From Euglena gracilis (lineage: Eukaryota), in the NCBI GenBank assembly GCA_039621445.1, contig CP154954.1, positions 24,564,954-24,628,953 of the forward strand: a stretch of 64,000 nucleotides of DNA. The letters are read 5' to 3'. The notes beneath the pieces are model-generated. The model had not been told where the DNA came from. It searched no databases and was given only the letters and a program-made list of their open reading frames with translations. Of this stretch, positions 10,076-52,528 are shown piece after piece. Position numbers and translations under genes: made by a program. The first letter of the stretch is position 1. The number at the start of each line of letters is the position of its first letter.

Positions 10076-10925
10076 CCGTCAAAAAATTTTTGTCCAAATC
10101 ACCTCAACACCAGTCAAAACCCACCCTAATGGCTCCAGAACCCCCCAATCGGGGGTGAATACGCAAAAACATGAGGGGAAAATGTCCATTTTGGGCCACT
10201 TTTGGCAAAAAAGTTGACCTAGGGCGCCGAAGGCGCCCTGCAGAAGAATTTGCTGATGGCGTTTTCCTGTGCCCAAAAAGAATTTATGAGGTTATGGAGT
10301 AGGGTTAGGGTTACGATTCTTATCCAAACAGCAGAACATTTCCCGCTCAACGTTGTTAGATTGGTCTCTACACATGGGGGGACCCTCGCTCGGCGCCTTC
10401 GGCGCCTCGCTCGGGTCCCCCCATGTTTTTAACCCTAGTTGGGCGGCTCTTTGGGGTAGCTGGTACCTTGTAGGGGCCAATTTATCACGTTTCTGAACAG
10501 CCGGCTGTAGTCCTCAAAAGCCGGGGCTTAAAAGTTCACAAAGGGGGGATTGCGGGAAAATGGTGGTCGGCCCGACCGTGGTAAGGGGTAGGGGGGGGTC
10601 GCTGAGCTCTTATCCCTTTATGGGTAAGAGCGAAGCTTACCACTGGGGGAAAAACCACCCCGAACCCCCCCCCCCCCCTTGGGGCCACCTAGGGAACCGG
10701 CGGATTATCACCATGATCCCGGCCCCGTTCCCGAAAATTTTTTTTTCAGTCACGAGCGACTGGATTCCTACCTCCCCCCCCCCTTGTCGTTGACACGGCG
10801 TGTCGTTGACACACCCCCCGTGTCAACGACACTTTTTTGGGACATTTTTTTTTTTGCGTTGGCCGCAGTTTCTGACAAATTTCAGCCAGAACATTTCAAA
10901 AATGTGTCGAATCTTCTTTCCAGAC

Positions 10926-13650
10926 ATGGCTTCGCATGTTTTCCCCTATGAATTTGGAGATTTGGTTCGATATGAGAGGTCCAATGGTGTAATTGTGGAC
11001 GCCATGGTTATTGGACCGTCAAACCGTGGAGAGAAGTACGTTGCTATCCGTTATGAACGCGGTGGGAAATTTGTTTATCATGAAGCAGCAGAATTGAAGG
11101 ATATTTCAAAGTGCCCTCGGCCCATCAGTCCTCCAGTTGAAAACCCAGGTTTGCACGATGATATGGATTTTTTTTACATTTTATATGTTCTCCAGCTTCA
11201 AAGCGGCCAAAGCCAACGGGAGTCAAGTTGCCAGGAAAGCCGTCTCCCAACAGTTTGGAAAAATTCTGGACTCGCAATTCAGTGGTGTGTGTGCATGAAT
11301 TGCAAAAATCATCTTTGTCTGAAACCATTTGCAGGGCGCAGAGGCCCCACGCACCCATCTTGGGAGCGAATTGGCAATGAGCTGGCATTAACTGTATGAG
11401 CAACCCCTGGTGCTTTTTGTTTCTTGTTGGTTTTACAGGGTTGCTGGCAAGCTCATCAAGCAACAATGCCAGCTGCGCCGCCAGTGGATATGGATTGTCT
11501 GAGATATGGTGCAAAGAGGATAACTCGCGTAGGGCGCTTTGCCGATCCAAGGAGAACGTTTCGTTCTGCGGCGGAAAAGGTCATCATCATGGATGCTGCA
11601 TTACGATGGGTGGACGTCCTGCCGCAGCCATATTTCGGGTGGCAGAAACCAACGCATGGTTTCAAAGTGCTCGCAAAACGAGAGAAGCGAATCAGAGCGC
11701 TAGCAAAAAAGCACGGTATGCCAATGTGCGGTGTCTGTTCACTGCATTCATCTGTTCAGGAGAGAGGCGCTGCACGTTCCATGGTGGAAAGAAATCCGCG
11801 TATCATGACGTTGAAGGTGATTTACGCAAATGGGTGTTGGAAAAAAGACAGAAGCGAGTGCTCGTTACCAAACGGATGGTTATTGCCAAGGTTTGTGTTT
11901 TTTTTAAAAAAAACTTGCTGCACACGTCATTCACTGTAGGTTTGCCAATGGAGTGCTGATCTGGCAGCGCTCCAAGACAAAAGACCTGATTTGCTGAACG
12001 AGTGGTGGATTGGTTTTCGCAAGCGGCGACGGATGACAACGCGGCGTGTAACATCATTCAGAAAGGTTGAAGACGATCTTGTACTTCCGCTCGTGCAACG
12101 ATATCGGTGTGCCATGGATATGAGATACGGGCGGACTTTTTTTTCCATCCACAGAGCGAATTTGCATCGCGCAATCCGCAACAAGCAGGTGCTGGTGCTT
12201 GGCAATGCAGATGAAACAACCAGGGTTCACCGGCAAGGCTGCCGGGCTGTTCACCAATTGCAATTTTTGGATTCCCTGCTATTTTGGGGGGAGGTTCAGG
12301 GTCAGGATATGGATTCGGATTCCCCAAAAGAGGGTTTTCTGTGCTGTTGATGTTCTGTTTGGCGGGGACCCTGACTTTGGCACTCAGCCTTGAGCCAGTC
12401 GCAAAGACCACAATCGAGGACAAAGGTCAACGGTCATGCAGTTGCTTATTCCTGCGAGATTGAGCGGTGTTTTCAGCAATTGCATGGCCATGACGAGTTG
12501 CGGTTCGGGTTCGCGGGAAGCATCGGGAGCATGTGACCGCTTACCTTTCGTTCCTGATCGAAATCAACCATGGCACCGACAGGGATGGTGACAGTTGTAT
12601 CGTTTTGGGTAAGGTGCATCGTCCAAAGCCTGCCATTGTGTGGAAGGGCAAGGACGGTGGCAGGGTGCACAAGCAGGTGCAGAGTTTTGCCAAGAAGGGT
12701 TTTGGCCATCCAGTGGTGAACACCGTTGCACCGAGAGGAAAGACAACAGAAAAATCAATGGTGGTGATTTTGAGGGAGACGCTGACCCCATTCAATTTTC
12801 CAAAAGGAAAATGTTTGTATGTTGTCGACGGTGCGCCGTCGCACATTCATGCCCAAATTTGTCACACGTTACGAAATTTGGGTTGGGGGATGTATATATC
12901 CCCCCCTAACAGTACCCCCTATGCTCAGGCATGTGATAAAACACAGATAAACGGAAAATTCAAAAAAGAGGTGGAAGAAAAATATGCCGAATGGCTCCTT
13001 GCAACTGTGGAGGGGATGGATACAAAGAAGGCCATACCGTCCCCAGATCGGCATGTCATTGCCAAATGGGTGGGTGAAGCATTCGCAAAAGTTTCTGATG
13101 ACGACATCCGAGAGGCTTGTCGGCATGCTTATTTTCCTCGTGGGCTGAAGCTGAAAAACCTGGAGGACCTGGGATTCTTCGATGTGCCAATGGAAAAGCA
13201 AGATTCGGATTCTGACCTTGATTCTGGGACTGATGACACCTCAGACTCTGATTCCGATCTGACCTCTGTCACTTCCTCCAGCTCCGATGTTTCTGATTGC
13301 TCTTCAATTTCTCAGCAGGCTGTTTTTTTTCTCTCTGATAAAAATGGCCTGTGTGTGATTCTGCTCCAGGTTCGCATCCTAACCAGCCTAACCAGGGCGA
13401 GGAAGAGGTCGTGTGGGCGAAGGCAGACAGGGGTGTGTGGGGCTTAACCCATGTATTTGATGAAAAGCTCTACATGACAAGAGATCTTGTAGACGGGTCA
13501 GCGCTCCCAGAAAATTTCAAACCCATGCCTGAGCAAGGGGATCAACCAAAGGGGCCGAAGAAAAAACAAAGAGCTGAGGGGGTTGTCCATGTACAACAGT
13601 TCAAGATGAAGTACCAGAAAGGGAAGGGATGGTGTTCTGTTCCGTGTTGA
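10926..13650 (+). CDS. Spliced pogo-family DD35D transposase with CENP-B-type HTH
   Basis: HTH segments YHDVEGDLRKWVLEKRQ and WWIGFRKRRRMTTRRVT. Catalytic motifs GNADET, YVVDGAPSH and PPNSTPYAQACD (35 residues between the 2nd and 3rd Asp). GT-AG introns at 11149-11195, 11716-11759, 11891-11939 and 12107-12154, plus two nonconventional introns. The 5' and 3' exon joins are less certain. Confidence 0.88.
12218..12378 (+). other. Nonconventional intron inside the transposase
   Basis: C|AACCAGGGTTC ... GGACCCTG-ACTTT|G. CAG at +4..+6 pairs with CTG at -8..-6, with Y|R at both junctions. Removal gives NADET-ALSLEPVAKTTIEDKG in frame. Confidence 0.8.
12429..12494 (+). other. Second nonconventional intron inside the transposase
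   Basis: A 14-bp stem GGTCATGCAGTTGC / GCAATTGCATGGCC (two G-U pairs) runs from +4 to -6, with Y|R junctions. It removes an in-frame TGA and gives KG-RVAVRVRGKHREHVTAYL. Confidence 0.7.
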
Positions 13651-14449
13651 TCTCTGACCTCTGCATTTGTGTATTCCCCATCCCCATCCGCACCGGCCAC
13701 AGTGTGGCGAACATGCTCAGGGGGTCATGCATTGTTGCTGGCGCGGTCGGTTTTTTTTTTATGGCACTGTGTCGTTGACACGGCGTGTCGTTGACACACC
13801 CCTCGTGTCAACGACACTTTCCTGGAACATTGGCGTGTCAACGACAAGGGGGGGGGGAGGTAGTTTCCGAATCACCTGGGTTTGACCCCCAACTCCCCGC
13901 CAGGCCCGAGTTATTCACGCGCGAAGGGGTCCAAACTGGGTAGGATTCGCCAACCCCCCCTGGATAAGCCCCCCCCCCTATGGACGGCCAAAAAATGTCA
14001 ATTTTCAAAATATCTCCAAAATGAAGCAAAATCAAAGGAAATGTCCAGACCTAAATTGAAGCCCTTGGAACGCTCTATCTACTGTGATTTTGGTTTCATC
14101 GCAGCTCACCGCCTAGCCCGAGATACGGCCGTTTTTCGGCCAATTTTGTCCATTTTGTACACTTTTCCCTCTGTTCGACTTTTTCCATTTTCGGCCAAAA
14201 AAGTCAAAAAAAGTCGAAAAAAAATTTATTTTGCACGAACCAGACGCGACGCGGACGAAACGATGTGTTTTTTTTGCCCTCACCGGACCAGAACAGAAAA
14301 GGAAAGGGAAAAGAGCCGACAAAAAACGATGTTTTTTTTTTGTATTTTTCTTTTTATTTTCTTTTTTTTTTTCTCTCCCCAGGACCGATCCCCACCTTGT
14401 TTTTATTTTATTTTTATTTATTTTTTTTGATAGGTGTCGTTTTGTTTGT

Positions 14450-15670
14450 TTTTGAGCCGAAACGAGCGGCGTTTTTCGACCCGCCAGCGCGCCCCGTTTT
14501 TGGGGCCGCCGACCCATTGACTTTGGGTCAAAACCGGGTCGAAAAAGTCGAAAAATCGAAAAGTTTTTTGGCCAATTGGGTCCGTTTTAGGCCATTTTGA
14601 AAAAAATCGAAAAATTTTTTTTGCCCGAAACGATGTTTTTTGGCCTCCCGGACCCGGAAAAACTGTTTTTGAGCCGAAAACGAGCGTTTTTCGACCCGCC
14701 AGCGCCCCGTTTTGGGCCGCCGACCCATTGACTTTGGGTCAAAACCGGGTCGAAAAAGTCGAAAAAAATCGAAAAAAATTTTTTTTTCCGCGAAAAGATG
14801 TTTTTTGGCCTCACGTAACCGGAAAAAACGTTTTTGAGCAAAAAACGAGCGTTTTTCTAACTGACATCGCCCCGTTTTGGGCCGCTGACACATTTACTTT
14901 GGGTCAAAACCGGGTCGAAAAAGTCGAAAAAAATTTTTTTTTTTTTTGCCCGAAACGATGTTTTTTGGCCTCCCGGACCCAGAAAAACTGTTTTTGAGCC
15001 GAAAACGAGCGTTTTTCGACCCGCCAGCGCCCCGTTTTGGGCCGCCGACCCATTGACTTTGGGTCAAAACCGGGTCGAAAAAGTCGAAAAAAATCGAAAA
15101 AATTTTTTTTCCCCAAACGATGTTTTTTGGCCTCCCGGACCCGGAAAAACTGTTTTTGAGCCGAAAACGAGCGTTTTTCGACCCGCCAGCGCCCCGTTTT
15201 GGGCCGCCGACCCATTGACTTTGGGTCAAAACCGGGTCGAAAAAGTCGAAAAAAATCGAAAAAGTTTTTTTTTTGCCCGAAACGATGTTTTTTGGCCTCC
15301 CGGACCCGGAAAAACTGTTTTTGAGCCGAAAACGAGCGTTTTTCGACCCGCCAGCGCCCCGTTTTGGGCCGCCGACCCATTGACTTTGGGTCAAAACCGG
15401 GTCGAAAAAGTCGAAAAAAATCGAAAAAATTTTTTTGCCCCAAACGATGTTTTTTGGCCTCCCGGACCCGGAAAAACTGTTTTTGAGCCGAAAACGAGCG
15501 TTTTTCGACCCGCCAGCGCCCCGTTTTGGGCCGCCGACCCATTGACTTTGGGTCAAAACCGGGTCGAAAAAGTCGAAAAAAATCGAAAAAACAATGTTTT
15601 TGGGCCTCCCGGACCCGGAAAAACTGTTTTTTGAGCCGAAAACGAGCGTTTTTCGACCCACCGGCGCCCT
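14450..15670. repeat. Tandem array, unit about 162-165 bp, about 7 copies
   Basis: The marker GAAAACGAGCG recurs at 14676, ~14840, 15001, 15163, 15328, 15490 and 15638. Confidence 0.95.
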
Positions 15671-16469
15671 GTTTCTGGCACAAAACCCATGGATTTCAGG
15701 CAAAAGAGCTCCATGGAGTGGGCCGGTATGTATGGAGGGGTCGCTGAGCTCTTATCCCTTTATGGGTAAGAGCGAAGCTTACCACTGGGGGAAACCCCCC
15801 CCCCCCCCCCCCCCCTCCCCCCCCCCCTCGGGGCCACCTCGGGAACCGGCGGATTATCACCATGATCCCGGCCCCGTTCCCGAAAAATTTTTTTTCAGTC
15901 ACGAGCGACTGGATTCCTAGTTTCCGAATCACCTGGGTTTGACCCCCAACTCCCCGCCAGGCCCGAGTTATTCACGCGCGAAGGGGTCCAAACTGGGTAG
16001 GATTCGCCAACCCCCCCTGGATAAGCCCCCCCCCCCTTTGGACGGCCAAAAAATGTCAATTTTCAAAATATCTCCAAAATGAAGCAAAATCAAAGGAAAT
16101 GTCCGGAGACCTAATTTGAAGCCCTTGGAACGCCCCATCTACCGGTATTTTGATTTCCCCGCAACGCCCCGTCTAGCCCGAGATACGGCCGTTTTCGGCG
16201 CAGCTGGCCGTTTTGTACACTTTTCCCTCTGTTCGACTTAGCCGTTTTGGGGGGTGGGGGGTCAAAAAATCGATGTTTTCAAAATTTCTCGAAAATGATG
16301 CAAAATCAAAGGAAATGTCCAGAGACCTAAATTGAAGCCCTTGGAACGTCTACTGTGATTTTGGTTTCATCGCAGCTCACCGCCTAGCCCGAGATACGGC
16401 CGTTTTTCGGCCAATTTTGGCCATTTTGTACACGTTTTCCACTGTTCGACTTAGCCATTTTCGGCCAAA

Positions 16470-17280
16470 AAAATCGAAAAAAATCGAAAAATTTTTTTTG
16501 CCCAAAACGATGTTTTTTAGCCTCCCGGACCTGGAAAAACTGTTTTTGAGCCGAAAATGAGCGTTTTTCGACCCGCCAGCACCCCGTTCTGGGCCGCCAA
16601 CCCATTGACTTCGGGCCAAAACCGGGTCAAAAAAGTCGAAAAAAATCGAAAAAAATTTTTTGCCCAAAACGATGTTTTTTAGCCTCCCGGACCTGGAAAA
16701 ACTGTTTTTGAGCCGAAAATGAGCGTTTTTCGACCCGCCAGCACCCCGTTCTGGGCCGCCAACCCATTGACTTCGGGCCAAAACCGGGTCAAAAAAGTCG
16801 AAAAAAATCGAAAAAAATTTTTTTGCCCAAAACGATGTTTTTTGGCCTCCCGGACCCGGAAAAACTGTTTTTGAGCCGAAAATGAGCGTTTTTCGACCCG
16901 CCAGCGCCCCGTTCTGGGCCGCCAACCCATTGACTTCGGGCCAAAACCGGGTCAAAAAAGTCGAAAAAAATCGAAAAAAATTTTTTTGCCCGAAAAAAGA
17001 AAAAAAAAAGAAAAATAAATAAAAAAAAAAAAAAATATTTTTTGCCCAAAACGATGTTTTTTGGCCTCCCGGACCCGGAAAAACTGTTTTTGAGCCGAAA
17101 ATGAGCGTTTTTCGACCCGCCAGCGCCCCGTTTTGGGCCGCCAACCCATTGACTTCGGGCCAAAACCGGGTCAAAAAAGTCGAAAAAAATCGAAAAAAAT
17201 TTTTTTGCCCGAAACGATGTTTTTTGGCCTCCTGGACCCGGAAAAGGGGTTTTCGAGCCGAAAATGGGCGTTTTTCGACC
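16470..17280. repeat. Second array of the ~162-bp unit (about 4-5 copies, resumes at 18690-18905)
   Basis: Same unit with array-specific variants (AATGAGCG, ACTTCGGGCC). Confidence 0.93.
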
Positions 17281-17282
17281 AT

Positions 17283-18686
17283 AATGGCCATCATGGCCCG
17301 TGATGGCCATGATGCGCATCATGACCGGTGATGCCAATGATGCCAATCATGGGTCATAATGTGCATGATGACCCATGATGACCATCATGGGCAATGATGG
17401 CCATCATGACCAATGATGGCCATCATGACCAATGATGGCCATCATGACCAATGATGGCCATCATGATGGCCATCATGACCCAATGATGGCCATCATGACA
17501 CATGATGGCCATCATGACCAATGATGGCCATCATGACCAATGATGGCCATCATGACCAATGATGGCCCTCACATCAAATGATGGCCTTCATGACCAATGA
17601 TGAAAATAATGACCAATGATGGCCATCATGACCAATGATGGCCATCATGACCAATGATGGCCATCATGACCAATGATGGCTATCATGTGTCATGATGGAC
17701 ATGATGACAAATGATGGCCATCATGACCAATGATGGCTATCATGACCAACGATGGCCATCATGACCCATGATGTCCATCAGGACCAATGATGGCCATCAG
17801 GACCAATGATGGCCATCATGACCAATGATGGCCATCATGACCCATGATGGCCATCATGACCAATGATGGCCATCATGACCAATGATGGCCATCATGACCA
17901 ATGATGGCCATCATGACCAATGATGGCCATCATGACACATGATGGCCATCAGGACCAATGATGGCCATCAGGACCAATGATGGCCATCAGGACCAATGAT
18001 GGCCATCAGGACCAATGATGGCCATCGGGACCAATGATGGCCATCGGGACCAATGATGGCCATCAGGACCAATGATGGCCATCAGGACCAATGATGGCCA
18101 TCAGGACCAATGATGGCCATCAGGACCAATGATGGCCATCATGACCAATGATGGCCATCATGACCAATGATGGCCATCAGGACCCCTGAGGCCCATCAGG
18201 ACCAATGATGGCCATCAGGACCAATGATGGCCATCAGGACCAATGATGGCCATCATGACCAATGATGGCCATCATGACCAATGATGGCCATCATAACCCC
18301 TGATGCCCATCAGGACCAATGATGGCCATCAGGACCAATGATGGCCATCAGGACCAATGATGGCCATCAGGACCAATGATGGCCATCAGGACCCATGATG
18401 GCCATCAGGACCCATGATGGCCATCAGGACCCATGATGCCCATCATGACCAATGATGGCCATCACCACCAATGATGGCCATCACGACCCATGATGGCCAT
18501 CATGACCCATGATGGCCATCATGACCCATGATGCCCATCATGACCAATGATGGCCATCACGGCCAATGATGGCCATCATGGCCCATGATGGCCATCATGG
18601 GCCATGACGGCCATCATTGGTCATGATGGCCATCATGGGTCAACCAATGATAGCCATCATGGCCCATGATGGCCATCATGACCAAT
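17283..18686. repeat. 19-bp minisatellite ATGATGGCCATCATGACCA
   Basis: Period 19 is directly visible; each unit contains the 14-bp palindrome ATGATGGCCATCAT. Confidence 0.97.
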
Positions 18687-18917
18687 GTCAACCGGGTCAA
18701 AAAAGTCGAAAAAAATGGAAAAAATTTTTTTGCCCGAAACGATGTTTTTTGGCCTCCCGGACCCGGAAAAACTGTTTTTGAGCCGAAAATGAGCGTTTTT
18801 CGACCCGCCAGCGCCCCGTTTTGGGCCGCCGACCCATTGACTTTGGGTCAAACCCGGGTCAAAAAAGTCGAAAAAAATCGAAAAAAATTTTTGGGCCCGA
18901 AACGATTCGCTGGGACG

Positions 18918-35258: not shown

Positions 35259-38200
35259 TTATATATTTATTTATCTCTTTATTTTATTTATTTGTGTTTG
35301 TTTCAGTGAAGGAGGATTATTGAGCAACTTGTTTCAAATTTGGACCCAGCATTGCGCGTTGTGTGGGTGTGTGATCACTCCCCCCCCCCCCCGGGTGTTG
35401 GTGGTGGTGCTGGTGGTAGTGGCTGCGGAGTCTTGTTGCTGTTGTTGTCGTTGTTACGCCGTTGTTCTTGTTGCACCATGAATCCATATATTGTCAGGTC
35501 TTTTTTTTTTAAGGAACAGGGGGATCGGTTGTCCACCCACCCCCCGGGGGAGGGGGGTCTGGGGACCCTAACCAACCCACCCACTCTCGAAAATCCACCC
35601 CCACCACCACCACCATTGGTAACAATCACAGTTTTGATCAACGTTGTCTTTATCAAAGAATCCTGTTTTCTACACAGGATTCTTTTGACCATTGGTACGA
35701 CAGGGCGCTTGCCCCCCCCCTAGGGCGCTTGGCTCCCCTCCTCCTCACATACAAACTTGGCCCCCTAAGGTTGGGAAGCAGGTGTTGCCATCATCTTAAC
35801 GTAATTGAATTTGAGAATTTTTTCGCCGAGGGAACTCTCTTTTCCAAACCTCACATTGTTTTGATATGTCCACATCCAAGTTTTCTTTTCTCCCTCATAT
35901 TAACCCGTTTTTTTTATGTTTTTTGGTTTTCTTGCAACCTATATGAAAACAAATGAGCATTGCAGGCTGATCCTGCACTGAGCAAAGGAAGGAGTTGAGC
36001 TTTGGGGGGGGGTATATATCTCCTCCCTTCGCAGGCAGGGGCACGCCGTTATGTTTGTGGCAAAAAAAAATCGTGCAAATGTTTTCTTGCACGGGTAGCT
36101 CCACGGTCTGCCCTTATCTGCCGCTCCTCTGCATTTCTCCGCTGCCAAACATTTCCTCAATGGCAGTTATTTGAATCACAGGTGGAAGTTTCACCAAGTC
36201 CACCGTCTGCCAAGGGGAGGTATAGCACTGTTTTTTTTTTGCATTTGGCAGTGTGCTAGTGACAGCTGCAGCGTTGGTACGGAGGAAGGTCTTTTTTTTG
36301 GACACATGTTGGAACCAATTGTCCAATGTAACTGACCCAGGATCCACAGTCCAAAATCAAAATTTTCTGGATATTTTTGTATTCTCCTGTGCATTTCACA
36401 TGTTAGGGTTCGCCCGACCTTTGCCAACACAGGGATTTCTGAACCCTGAAATCAGATTGCCACCCTTGCCCCAAGGGCACCCTTTTTTGTGGCATATGCA
36501 GCAGCAACAAGGACTGTCTGCCCGGTGCCCATTGCACTGGACGCTGCCAGCCCGCCTTCCCCACCCACTGTGTGGATGGCTCACACCCATGGATTCATTA
36601 CAAACCTGCGTGACCCCCCCTGGGGGTTTTTCAAGAGTGGGTGGGTGGGTGGGTTAGGGTCGCTGGACTCTCCCCCCCCAGGAGTGGGTAGGGCAGTTGT
36701 TCAGATTTTTGCCGACCGAATGCCGGATGGAAAATTTCGGCCGATTTTGGCTGGGTTTTGAGTGGGTGGTTGACCCGCCTGGGGGGGGGGGGTCGTGGGT
36801 GGGTGGGTTTCAAAAAGCTGATGGGTGGGTTGCGAGAGTCCCAGAGACCCCGGGGTAAACTGAGTGAATCTGTGCTCACACCTGTGTGGCTCCGTGCCGT
36901 TTTGGACAGCAAACCTGCAACCGGAAGTATTCAATTTGGCTTCCCCAATTTCTCCCAGAAGCAGCATCCTAACGCCTTAGAAAGCTGCGAGGTGGGGTTT
37001 CCTTATTTGTCACGTTAGGAAGAGAGGTCGGCTTCCTACACCCAGCCAGGGTGAAGGAAGGTGAGCCCCCACCAGAAAGTTGTCTTCTGAATAATGCAAC
37101 CAGAAAACATGCGTGGGTCCAAGGGCGGAGTGTAACCCACCTTCGGACTCTCCTCCCAATCTCCATAGCTTCCTCTGGGATTTGATTTTTTGGTGTTTTT
37201 ATGTTTCGCCCGGCAGGGTGCAAATGCATATTTTTGCAGGAATCTTCTCTTTTTTTTCCGTGCGAGGTAACGTGCCCCAATCGCAGGTGCAAGGTCATAA
37301 TGTGGACTGCCACGTTATGACCGCACACTGAGAGTTGGTGAGAGGAGGCTGGTTGTGTGCGAGGTTTGATGCCACCGACGCTTTCACTCAAACGAGTCGC
37401 AACGTCGCAAGGTGTGCAGGTTCGCTGGGCTGGTTTCTCTCTCTATATGCCCGATCTACCCCATCTTCATCCAGATCCACGCGTTGTGAATGGCCGCTGT
37501 AGATGAACGGGGGTTGGTGTGCTCTTTAAAGGGCCTCTGGGAATACGGGGGGTGGGGGCAGGCAAATGGACTGACAGGAAACAGAGGTTGGCTTCTGCTC
37601 CGTTGCCCAGCTCAGCCTGCCTGGTTATTCATTTTCTTTTTTTTTTGTGCAAGAACCAGGCCAGGGTTCGATATAAGCGTTTAGCGGAGGGTGTCCCCCC
37701 CTGGACCGGAGGGGTGGTCCGGACAGACCCTGGGGGGGCACCTGTAACCCCCCAAAAGGTCAAAATTTTACCTGGCACTTTGCGCCAATTTTTTTTTGCA
37801 TTTTTGACAATTTTTTGCCAAAGGGTGCCCCAAGTGGCATTTATGGCCAGTTTGGGGGATCAAATTTTTTCGGCCCGGCGCTTCGGCCAAAAATCGGTCG
37901 CTAGACCGGCCACTGTTTAGGTGGGGCCCCAGGCATTATTAATTACTTGACAATTGACGATTTGTTCTTTTCGTGGCACGCCTTTTTTGAATGCCTAGTT
38001 CTTCTTGTGTCACAAAGGGTGCTGAGATCTGCGTGAGATGTGTCGCCCTCGAACAAATGTGCTGTCAGAAAGTGATGTTCTTTAAGATGGGGGGGCAGGC
38101 TTTGTCCGGGACGGGGGGATATTGTTGCTTCCCGGGAAAAGCCTGCCAAAAGCTGAAATAATCGGGGATGCAAACTACCTCTCTTCCCCCTGCCCAGGAC

Positions 38201-38773
38201 ACACCATGTCGTTGACAACTCCCCTTTTCCAGAACACTACTTGAGGCTTTTCATTGAATGACAGTGGCGTTGAGATGCCATGTCGTTGGCACACACACCC
38301 CGTGTCAACAGCACATAGGATGCCCCCATCTCCCCCCCTCCCCCGGGCGCTTGGCCCGGGCCATGATTGAAGGTAAGGTAAGGTAAGGCCAGTTGGCCAA
38401 CCTGTTGGGGGTCCAAATTTGCGTGTTAAGAATTTTGGTGGCCATGTGCAAAAGGCCGAAGTTAATTTTAGGCGGCCAAGTTTGCATGTAAGGAGGAGGG
38501 GGGCCAAGCACCCAGAGGGGGGGGGCAAGCGTCCAGGGGGGGGAGGCAATTTTGGACAAACCTCCTGCAAGGAATTTTTTTTTGGAAAAACTGCATCGTC
38601 CAAATTAGAGCCCCCTTGGGATTATTCAGCAACGGGCCAAAAAGGTGGACCGGTCCCCTGTTTTGCAGGGTTAAGGCGGGGGAGGTTCGGGGGACTCCAC
38701 GGGGGGGGGCGGGTCAATTGAGTGCTACTTCTAAAATTCCCACCGCTTCGTGCCAGGAACAGAGGCAAACCAT

Positions 38774-51881: not shown

Positions 51882-52528
51882 TGGCGAGAGCGGAACACAG
51901 CATTTACAAGGTACGCTGTGTCTGAACAAGCAAGCAAGGTTGACAGAGATGAAGAAGATACATCAGAGTATTCACTGGGAGAGTACGAAGTCGATCAGCA
52001 AGTCGATTGCGTACTGTACGAAAGAGGAAACCAGACACGGTAATCGACATGGCTGAAGAGCTTGACTTGACTGCGCCCTACGGCTGGCAGTTGGCGGTGA
52101 TGAACATCATCGCCAGGCCTGTATGCAAGAGAAGCATATACTGGTTTTGGGAACCCGACGGCAACGTTGACAAATCGGAGCTTTGCAGTTGGCTGGTGGC
52201 TAAGCATAATGCACTCATGCTTTCGGGGAGACCAACTGATATGTATCATATGATATCCAAATTTCCGAAAAAAAGGAAGCTCATGACTATCGATCTCCCA
52301 AGATCCGCACGAGAGTGTGTGAATTATGAAGCTATCGAACATATCAAGAACGGCCTAGTATTTAGTTGTCAGGTACAGTTTAACAGACCTCACGTGATAG
52401 GCTTTTCAAACGCAAAACCATTTACACACCAGATGAGCACAGATAGATGGTACGTCATCGATATCAGAGAACTCATGAAGAACCCGAAGTCGCACGACGA
52501 AATAATTCAACGTAGTAAGTTAGCTTAA
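51882..52528 (+). pseudogene. rep: Endogenous CRESS-DNA virus Rep (HUH endonuclease plus SF3 helicase), 5'-truncated and frameshifted
   Basis: RCR motif II (GTQHLQG) and motif III (YCTKEET), then a frameshift near 52040. Walker A WEPDGNVDKS (G to D), Walker B TIDLPRS, YEAIEHIKNG, motif C HVIGFSN and Arg finger STDRW. Motif I is absent. Confidence 0.9.

What the first reader, a model, noticed from the sequence alone, without database searches (positions are those of the whole stretch)
12218..12494. Transposase that needs nonconventional splicing at its catalytic motif
Seen: two stem-loop introns with stems at +4/-6 and Y|R junctions immediately follow the first catalytic Asp. Removing both yields the continuous pogo-like stretch NADETALSLEPVAKTTIEDKGRVAVRVRGKHREHVT, alongside several 44-49 nt GT-AG introns. 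The second intron lacks CAG/CTG, which suggests geometry matters more than sequence. Inference: the element is long adapted to euglenid splicing, which would limit horizontal transfer and give the host a control point.
Basis: partly seen in the sequence, partly recalled or inferred. Interest (0 to 1): 0.7.

Follow-up and report, generated by a model that had tools for sequence, protein, structure and literature searches.

The report
Pogo transposase gene with euglenid introns
A cut-and-paste jumping gene in a Euglena-type alga carries three of the host's unusual hairpin-ended introns, two of them just after its first catalytic residue; that is ordinary for a gene in such a genome, and any regulatory role is unproven.

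Summary
A 3,090-bp TA-flanked DNA transposon (10771-13860, 27-bp perfect inverted ends, empty sites nearby) encodes a pogo-type DD35D transposase in ten exons. Two hairpin-ended nonconventional introns follow the first catalytic Asp. Relatives run uninterrupted across both sites, so both must be removed for an active enzyme. Intron A (12218-12378) stands. A and B were seen only unspliced, at low depth; their splicing is inferred, not shown. Such introns are 72% of E. agilis introns, and 'pairing over sequence' was published in 2016 and contested in 2025. Host control and a block on horizontal transfer are untested. This scan noted other transposases with such introns elsewhere in this genome. 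Verdict: new member of a known kind, low-to-moderate interest; the open lead is P-element-like retention of off-code intron B.

The parts
10769..10770 (+). left TA target-site duplication
   Evidence: Empty sites with a single TA at about 6925 and 15917; joint 10768->13861 in 16 raw reads of X21 and 8 contigs of X20
10771..10797 (+). left terminal inverted repeat, 27 bp, followed by subterminal TGTCGTTGACAC-type repeats to about 10846
   Evidence: 100% complementary to the right end
10926..11148 (+). exon 1, probable start ATG; small N-terminal domain
   Evidence: Weak match to the N-terminus of relative P0134 (E 0.002, pairwise); open frame in the 10-exon model; start is inferred
11149..11195 (+). 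GT-AG intron 1, 47 nt (predicted)
   Evidence: not seen spliced: an otherwise spliced X1 contig begins inside it at 11164
11285..11334 (+). GT-AG intron 2, 50 nt
   Evidence: X1 record 1 holds 86 letters where 186 would be unspliced; removing this and intron 3 predicts exactly 86; the split between the two is inferred
11394..11438 (+). GT-AG intron 3, 45 nt
   Evidence: same arithmetic
11439..11715 (+). exon 4, first HTH region; frame broken in the window by several small indels (11368-11681)
   Evidence: X20 and X1 contigs differ from the window here (9 other letters and 14 gaps in X20 record 9); with those differences the frame is open: probably assembly error
11716..11759 (+). GT-AG intron 4, 44 nt, spliced
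   Evidence: X1 record 1 skips it
11760..11890 (+). exon 5, start of the Tc5-type HTH
   Evidence: HTH_Tnp_Tc5 E 0.036 on the ORF containing it (below cut-off); E 1.7e-4 on relative P0001
11891..11939 (+). GT-AG intron 5, 49 nt
   Evidence: X1 record 1 leaves the DNA at 11888 and shows 11941 four letters from a piece end; frame and homology
12107..12154 (+). GT-AG intron 6, 48 nt (predicted)
   Evidence: Of two donors tried, only 12107 gives an open frame; no RNA coverage; relative P0030 loses homology at this exon start
12155..12217 (+). exon 7, carries catalytic Asp 1 (codon 12210-12212)
   Evidence: aligns with the first Asp of DDE_1-bearing proteins
12218..12378 (+). nonconventional intron A, 161 nt, CAG/CTG at +4/-8, stem +4/-6
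   Evidence: the 8 best homology candidates of 914 are all 161 nt; not seen spliced
12379..12431 (+). exon 8, 53 nt with the revised border
12432..12491 (+). nonconventional intron B, revised, 60 nt; CAT/ATG at +4..+6/-8..-6; hairpin z -5.0
   Evidence: seen only unspliced in X1 (depth 3.7) and X4 (5.1)
12492..13312 (+). exon 9, rest of the DDE domain: Asp 2 (12827-12829), Asp 3 (12935-12937), DD35D, then an acidic linker
13313..13356 (+). nonconventional intron C, 44 nt, CAG/CTG, hairpin z -4.7, spliced
   Evidence: X1 record 5 skips 44 nt here, depth 8.7; GT-AG alternatives miss the C-terminal frame
13357..13650 (+). exon 10, family-specific C-terminal domain and stop
   Evidence: matches the C-termini of P0001, P0013, P0017; no Pfam hit
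13834..13860 (+). right terminal inverted repeat, 27 bp, with subterminal repeats from 13770
13861..13862 (+). right TA target-site duplication

Best explanation
This is a full-length pogo-type (IS630-Tc1-mariner group) cut-and-paste transposon resident in a euglenid nuclear genome. It inserted at a TA in a very high-copy dispersed repeat (shown). Its 722-residue DD35D transposase gene has six short GT-AG introns and three nonconventional hairpin introns, like other genes of the host. The spliceosome removes the GT-AG introns (shown for four), and the host's second splicing system removes A, B and C (shown for C, inferred for A and B). A and B were probably gained in this lineage and kept because they are cut out without a scar (inferred). 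Their place beside Asp 1 is probably chance: an unspliced intron anywhere upstream of the triad would stop the enzyme. The unspliced contigs are pre-mRNA or DNA, as expected when nonconventional introns leave after conventional ones.
For: TIRs, TA duplication and empty sites. Triad aligned with DDE_1 proteins, spacing 35 in 9 of the 10 relatives that show both Asp. Model of the last exon matches Mos1, Metnase and Sleeping Beauty catalytic domains (Z 8.4-8.9, rmsd 4.7-5.4, 152-156 aligned); Atlas DDE_1 at 0.95. Ten-exon model is stop-free once the contig differences are applied, and 42% identical to P0129 over 349 columns. Relatives continuous at A and B. Intron C and four GT-AG introns spliced in X1. 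Nonconventional introns are 71.8% of E. agilis introns; 62,894 of 72,771 non-slidable E. gracilis introns are nonconventional, and only 19,403 of these have CAG-CTG (Dataset S6). Conventional introns are removed first (PMC6221363, passages). Nonconventional positions are lineage-specific (PMC4770533).
Against: No spliced join was seen for A or B. In X1 the only contig over B is unspliced and unbroken (12308-12689), and bin depths leave no room for a spliced one; 119 joints were not shown. Raw RNA run X21 has no reads over 10959-13105 (5% of the run read). B departs from the published N3CDG/CH'G code at +6/-8. As assembled, the window's frame is broken (22 stops). The spliced C contig has one letter (13391) that the window and X20 lack, so it may come from another copy or allele. 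The last-exon ORF itself has no Pfam DDE_1 hit. The host species was not identified here.
Confidence: 0.7

Rival explanations
1. Regulated or rate-limiting retention, like P-element intron 3. Off-code intron B (and perhaps A) is spliced poorly, so most transcripts are degraded or give a truncated protein with both HTH regions and only Asp 1, which could bind the ends and repress transposition.
For: In X1, upstream GT-AG introns (depth 13.7) and code-matching C (8.7) are spliced while B and the end of A appear only unspliced (3.7). Retention truncates after Asp 1. An uncompensated CAG-to-CAT change was among the tested variants, and all motif variants blocked splicing. P-element precedent (PMC7776569, passages).
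Against: One low-depth contig, possibly DNA: X4 retains even GT-AG introns (record 16). A is a perfect code match and is also unspliced. Most E. gracilis nonconventional introns lack CAG-CTG. No condition-dependence was examined, and retention alone is not regulation.
Confidence: 0.15
2. A and/or B are not spliced: they are insertions that killed this copy, and the intact-looking join is only the ancestral reading.
For: No spliced join seen; the middle of the gene has the lowest RNA depth; an internally deleted form (11905->12367, depth 81 against 28) is the deeper one in the DNA run.
Against: Removal restores homolog length with no scar. Neither has a duplication remnant (1-4 of 8) or high copy number, so they look old, while the ends are perfect and the exons stop-free with an intact triad; a dead gene would have decayed. 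A obeys the tested code fully.
Confidence: 0.1
3. The reader's border for B (12429-12494) is right, and an intron with GGT/GCC at the motif positions is spliced on geometry alone, giving a protein two residues shorter than its relatives.
For: Stem starts exactly at +4 with unpaired 3- and 5-nt ends; Y|R junctions; open frame.
Against: Rank 33 of 426, 11 bits below the best; needs an extra gap against 7 of 11 spanning relatives; loses the C+4/G-6 pair that the 60-nt version keeps.
Confidence: 0.12

Closest known systems
pogo superfamily DD35D transposons (Passer, Fot/Fot-like; Gao et al. 2020, PMC7386202, passages; Dupeyron et al. 2020, PMC7325037, passages)
   Same: TA duplication, TIR under 40 bp, 1.2-5.2 kb, 300-977 aa, Tc5-type HTH, DD35D triad
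   Different: Nine introns (the word 'intron' does not occur in either main text); extra N- and C-terminal domains; too diverged for a direct DDE_1 hit; family not placed
Euglenid nonconventional introns (Milanowski 2014 PMC3935182 and 2016 PMC4770533; Guminska 2018 PMC6221363; Nomura 2025 PMC12501133)
   Same: Paired +4..+6/-8..-6, 3- and 5-nt spacers, purine at the next exon start; A and C match N3CDG/CH'GN5|R; mixed with 44-50 nt GT-AG introns
   Different: B has CAT/ATG, outside the tested code; the host gene here is a transposase
Drosophila P element intron 3 (PMC7776569, passages)
   Same: A transposase whose active form needs an intron removed; retention would truncate it after the DNA-binding part
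   Different: P-element control is shown, tissue-specific and spliceosomal; here retention is one low-depth contig and no regulation is shown
Intron-bearing CACTA transposases (PMC4158355, search listing and abstract start only)
   Same: DNA transposase genes that carry several host-type introns
   Different: Different superfamily; conventional introns

Membership tests
pogo superfamily | TA (or TAA/TAAA) target-site duplication | tested here: met
pogo superfamily | Terminal inverted repeats; length 1.2-5.2 kb | tested here: met
   27-bp TIR, 3,090 bp; ranges
pogo superfamily | DDD triad with DD29-59D spacing | tested here: met
   DD35D
pogo superfamily | DDE_1 catalytic domain and HTH_Tnp_Tc5 | tested here: inconclusive
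   No direct DDE_1 hit and HTH E 0.036; relatives carry both; Atlas 0.95 DDE_1; fold nearest Tc1/mariner domains
pogo superfamily | Phylogenetic placement in pogo and in a named family (Passer, Fot-like) | not testable with these tools
   No family-labelled reference transposases were available
Euglenid nonconventional intron (A) | N3CDG / CH'GN5-6|R code with paired ends | tested here: met
Euglenid nonconventional intron (A) | Removed from RNA at these borders | tested here: inconclusive
   No contig or read covers exon 7; only unspliced 3' part seen
Euglenid nonconventional intron (B) | Paired +4..+6/-8..-6, Y|R junctions | tested here: met
   8 of 8 pairs, C|G and T|G
Euglenid nonconventional intron (B) | N3CDG / CH'G sequence code of Nomura 2025 | tested here: not met
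Euglenid nonconventional intron (B) | Removed from RNA | tested here: inconclusive
   Only unspliced contigs at depth 3.7 and 5.1
Euglenid nonconventional intron (C) | Code, hairpin and removal from RNA | tested here: met
MITE-derived intron with split 8-bp duplication (lead from earlier scan notes) | 8-bp duplication remnant and high copy number | tested here: not met
   1, 3 (or 4) and 4 of 8 matches for A, B, C; no depth excess over A or B in X20
P-element-type splicing control | Regulated retention giving a repressor | not testable with these tools
   Needs condition-resolved RNA and protein assays

The most novel reading that the evidence does not exclude
Intron B, a compensated CAT/ATG variant outside the tested splice code, is a poorly spliced bottleneck. 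It lets the still unknown nonconventional splicing machinery set transposase dose, and its retention yields a DNA-binding, catalytically dead repressor: a P-element-like control run through a non-spliceosomal pathway, which would also confine the element to euglenids.
Probability: 0.12. Interest if true: 0.65.

Novelty: new member of a known kind. Interest (0 to 1): 0.3.

Why it matters
It is a carefully resolved, possibly intact euglenid DNA transposon. I found no paper describing nonconventional introns in a euglenid transposase gene (searches; open-licence library only). It shows that a mobile element can depend on a host-specific, mechanistically unknown splicing pathway. In practice, intron B is a natural test of the 2016 (pairing) versus 2025 (sequence code) views: it pairs fully but breaks the code at one base pair, and the published knock-in assay can test it directly. 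A cDNA of the gene could also seed a native transposon tool for Euglena. Because most introns in this genus are nonconventional, their presence in a resident transposase is expected and not surprising in itself.

Tried and rejected
No whole genome is held, so other copies could be judged only from run contigs. No listed holder was on record as RNA; X1 and X4 are guessed RNA, and only spliced joins show RNA content. X21 gave no reads over the catalytic exons, which is no evidence on expression. Signature scan alone was not significant. The 8-bp duplication test for a MITE origin was negative. GT-AG alternatives for the last intron (13322-13369, 13319-13369) miss the C-terminal frame; donor 12109 for intron 6 breaks the frame. 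Related DNA: metagenome scan gave 1 locus from 27 pattern matches, which lacks the A/B region. Its candidate 44-nt CAG/CTG linker intron (L001 599-642) is weak (z -1.7, next base T). The viral scan returned no locus; prokaryote genomes were not scanned. Hosts of the relatives are unnamed, so horizontal transfer could not be tested. PDB sequence search and Foldseek found nothing significant; Rfam found nothing in the window. The Atlas gave no useful name for exon 1. PMC11170887 (part 2 of 4) and PMC11282704 (passages) gave background only; PMC8101967 (passages) reports Merlin elements in E. gracilis and does not mention introns.

Full report
The element. The finding lies inside a 3,090-bp DNA transposon at 10771-13860. 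Its 27-bp ends are perfectly complementary and are flanked by TA on both sides. The same flanking repeat occurs twice more in the window with a single TA (about 6925 and 15917), and the empty join 10768->13861 appears in 16 raw reads of X21 and 8 contigs of X20. The host was not identified directly. It is inferred to be a euglenid from the intron types; earlier scan notes call the genome Euglena (unchecked).

The protein. The last long exon found 124 relatives at E<=0.001 and one longer protein; a later profile search added a 634-residue relative. A ten-exon model is out of frame as assembled (2,177 nt, 22 stops). Run contigs differ from the window at 11368-11681 (X20 record 9: 9 other letters, 14 gaps; X1 shares those from 11368 on that it lists). 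With those differences the model is 2,169 nt and stop-free, 722 residues, 42% identical to P0129 over 349 columns (one 1-nt gap was not listed, and 107 positions for it keep the frame open). Assembly error is the likeliest cause. The three Asp align with those of DDE_1-bearing proteins, with 35 residues between the last two. A model of the last exon (pLDDT 81) is closest to the Mos1, Metnase and Sleeping Beauty catalytic domains (Z 8.4-8.9). Against this, the window's own ORF has no Pfam DDE_1 hit, and Foldseek and PDB sequence searches were blank. TA, short TIR, size and DD35D fit the pogo superfamily as described in PMC7386202 (passages); the family could not be assigned.

Intron A. 12218-12378 starts 5 nt after the Asp 1 codon, pairs from +4 to -6 (overall z only -1.5), and has CAG/CTG at the consensus positions. 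Against a profile built from 9 close relatives without the window's sequence, the 8 best of 914 stop-free candidates are all 161 nt. The 9 were chosen from 30 proteins that aligned over the region; distant DDE_1 proteins, one misaligned, one partial hit and P0001 (which lacks the segment after B) were left out. Some relatives are near-duplicates, so they are not all independent.

It removes a gap against 7 of 11 spanning relatives and changes nothing for 4. Trimming three bases from each end keeps the same stem register, keeps Y|R at both junctions, puts C and A at +4 and +5 opposite G and T, and starts the next exon with R-A-C, the consensus in PMC4770533. It still breaks the N3CDG/CH'G code at +6/-8.

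RNA evidence (four runs). One X1 contig (depth 13.7) skips intron 4, and by letter count introns 2 and 3, and continues past intron 5; it begins inside intron 1. So this family's transcripts do undergo nonconventional splicing. A and B were seen only unspliced: X1 12308-12689 (depth 3.7) and X4 12254-12526 (5.1), and bin depths match those contigs alone. No X1 or X4 contig covers 12089-12201, and X21 has no reads over 10959-13105. Contigs drop rare forms, a filter leaves records out, 119 joints were not shown, and X4 retains GT-AG introns too, so absence of a spliced form is not established. The pattern fits the known order, conventional first (PMC6221363, passages), and also fits poor splicing of A or B.

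Age and spread. A, B and C show no 8-bp duplication remnant, and A and B have no depth excess in the DNA run, so they are not recent MITE insertions. P0030 (56% identical) loses homology exactly at the start of exon 7 but is continuous across A and B. That suggests a shared GT-AG position and lineage-specific gain of A and B, as reported for host genes; this is inferred from protein only. Hosts of the relatives are unnamed, so horizontal transfer could not be tested. The DNA run also shows an internally deleted form (11905->12367) and short end-to-end derivatives.

Comparison and novelty. Nonconventional introns are 71.8% of E. agilis introns, and 62,894 of 72,771 non-slidable introns in the E. 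gracilis set, of which 19,403 have CAG-CTG (Dataset S6). Three of nine here is below that share, and an intron without CAG/CTG is common. Pairing over sequence was argued in 2016 and qualified in 2025. In the supplements of the latter I saw Datasets S6 and S8 and a word search that found an uncompensated CAG-to-CAT construct but no 'CAT-ATG'; figures were not visible. Searches found no paper on such introns in a euglenid transposase. Earlier scan notes report hAT and Tc1-like transposases with such introns in this genome (not checked).

Verdict. A real, probably intact pogo-type transposon that depends on host nonconventional splicing, with one border corrected and one intron added. The dependence follows from homology; splicing of A and B, host control and a transfer barrier are not shown. 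Interest 0.3; the retention-control reading has about 12% probability and would deserve about 0.65.

Noticed in passing
window 11905-12367: DNA run X20 shows a joint skipping 461 nt (depth 81, against 28 for the full form), which would remove part of the second HTH, Asp 1 and most of intron A: non-autonomous deleted copies (letters between not known).
   Followed up: no
window 10939->13679 and 10999->13731: Short end-to-end derivatives; the element's ends are far deeper than its interior in X20 and X4, suggesting an abundant MITE family.
   Followed up: no
window 13250: Five X21 reads join unrelated sequence onto the element here, and reads lie on both strands over 13219-13670: a chimeric or antisense transcript using the element's 3' part.
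   Followed up: no
window 11368-11681: A cluster of indels and substitutions relative to run contigs: probable local assembly error that breaks the frame.
   Followed up: partly
window 38175-38340: Decayed end of the same or a related family: TA plus TIR-like bases and subterminal repeats (82% over 45 nt).
   Followed up: partly
window 51953-52525 (+): 191-residue ORF with motifs resembling the Walker A, Walker B and motif C of a superfamily-3 helicase or Rep of small ssDNA viruses (motifs recalled; no Pfam hit); possibly an endogenous remnant.
   Followed up: partly
window 14447-15674, 16463-17280, 17277-18687: Tandem arrays (about 162-bp and about 57-bp units); the transposon sits in a very high-copy dispersed repeat next to them.
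   Followed up: no
window 10926-11148 and 13357-13650: Small N-terminal and C-terminal domains shared with relatives and without Pfam names; relative P0134 also has a WW domain.
   Followed up: partly
L001 599-642: Candidate 44-nt CAG/CTG hairpin intron in the acidic linker of an environmental relative, near where intron C lies; weak (z -1.7). P0012 also diverges from its near-twin P0001 in this linker.
   Followed up: partly
window 11149-11195: Predicted intron 1 is retained in an otherwise spliced X1 contig that begins at 11164; another possible point of incomplete splicing or a different 5' end.
   Followed up: no
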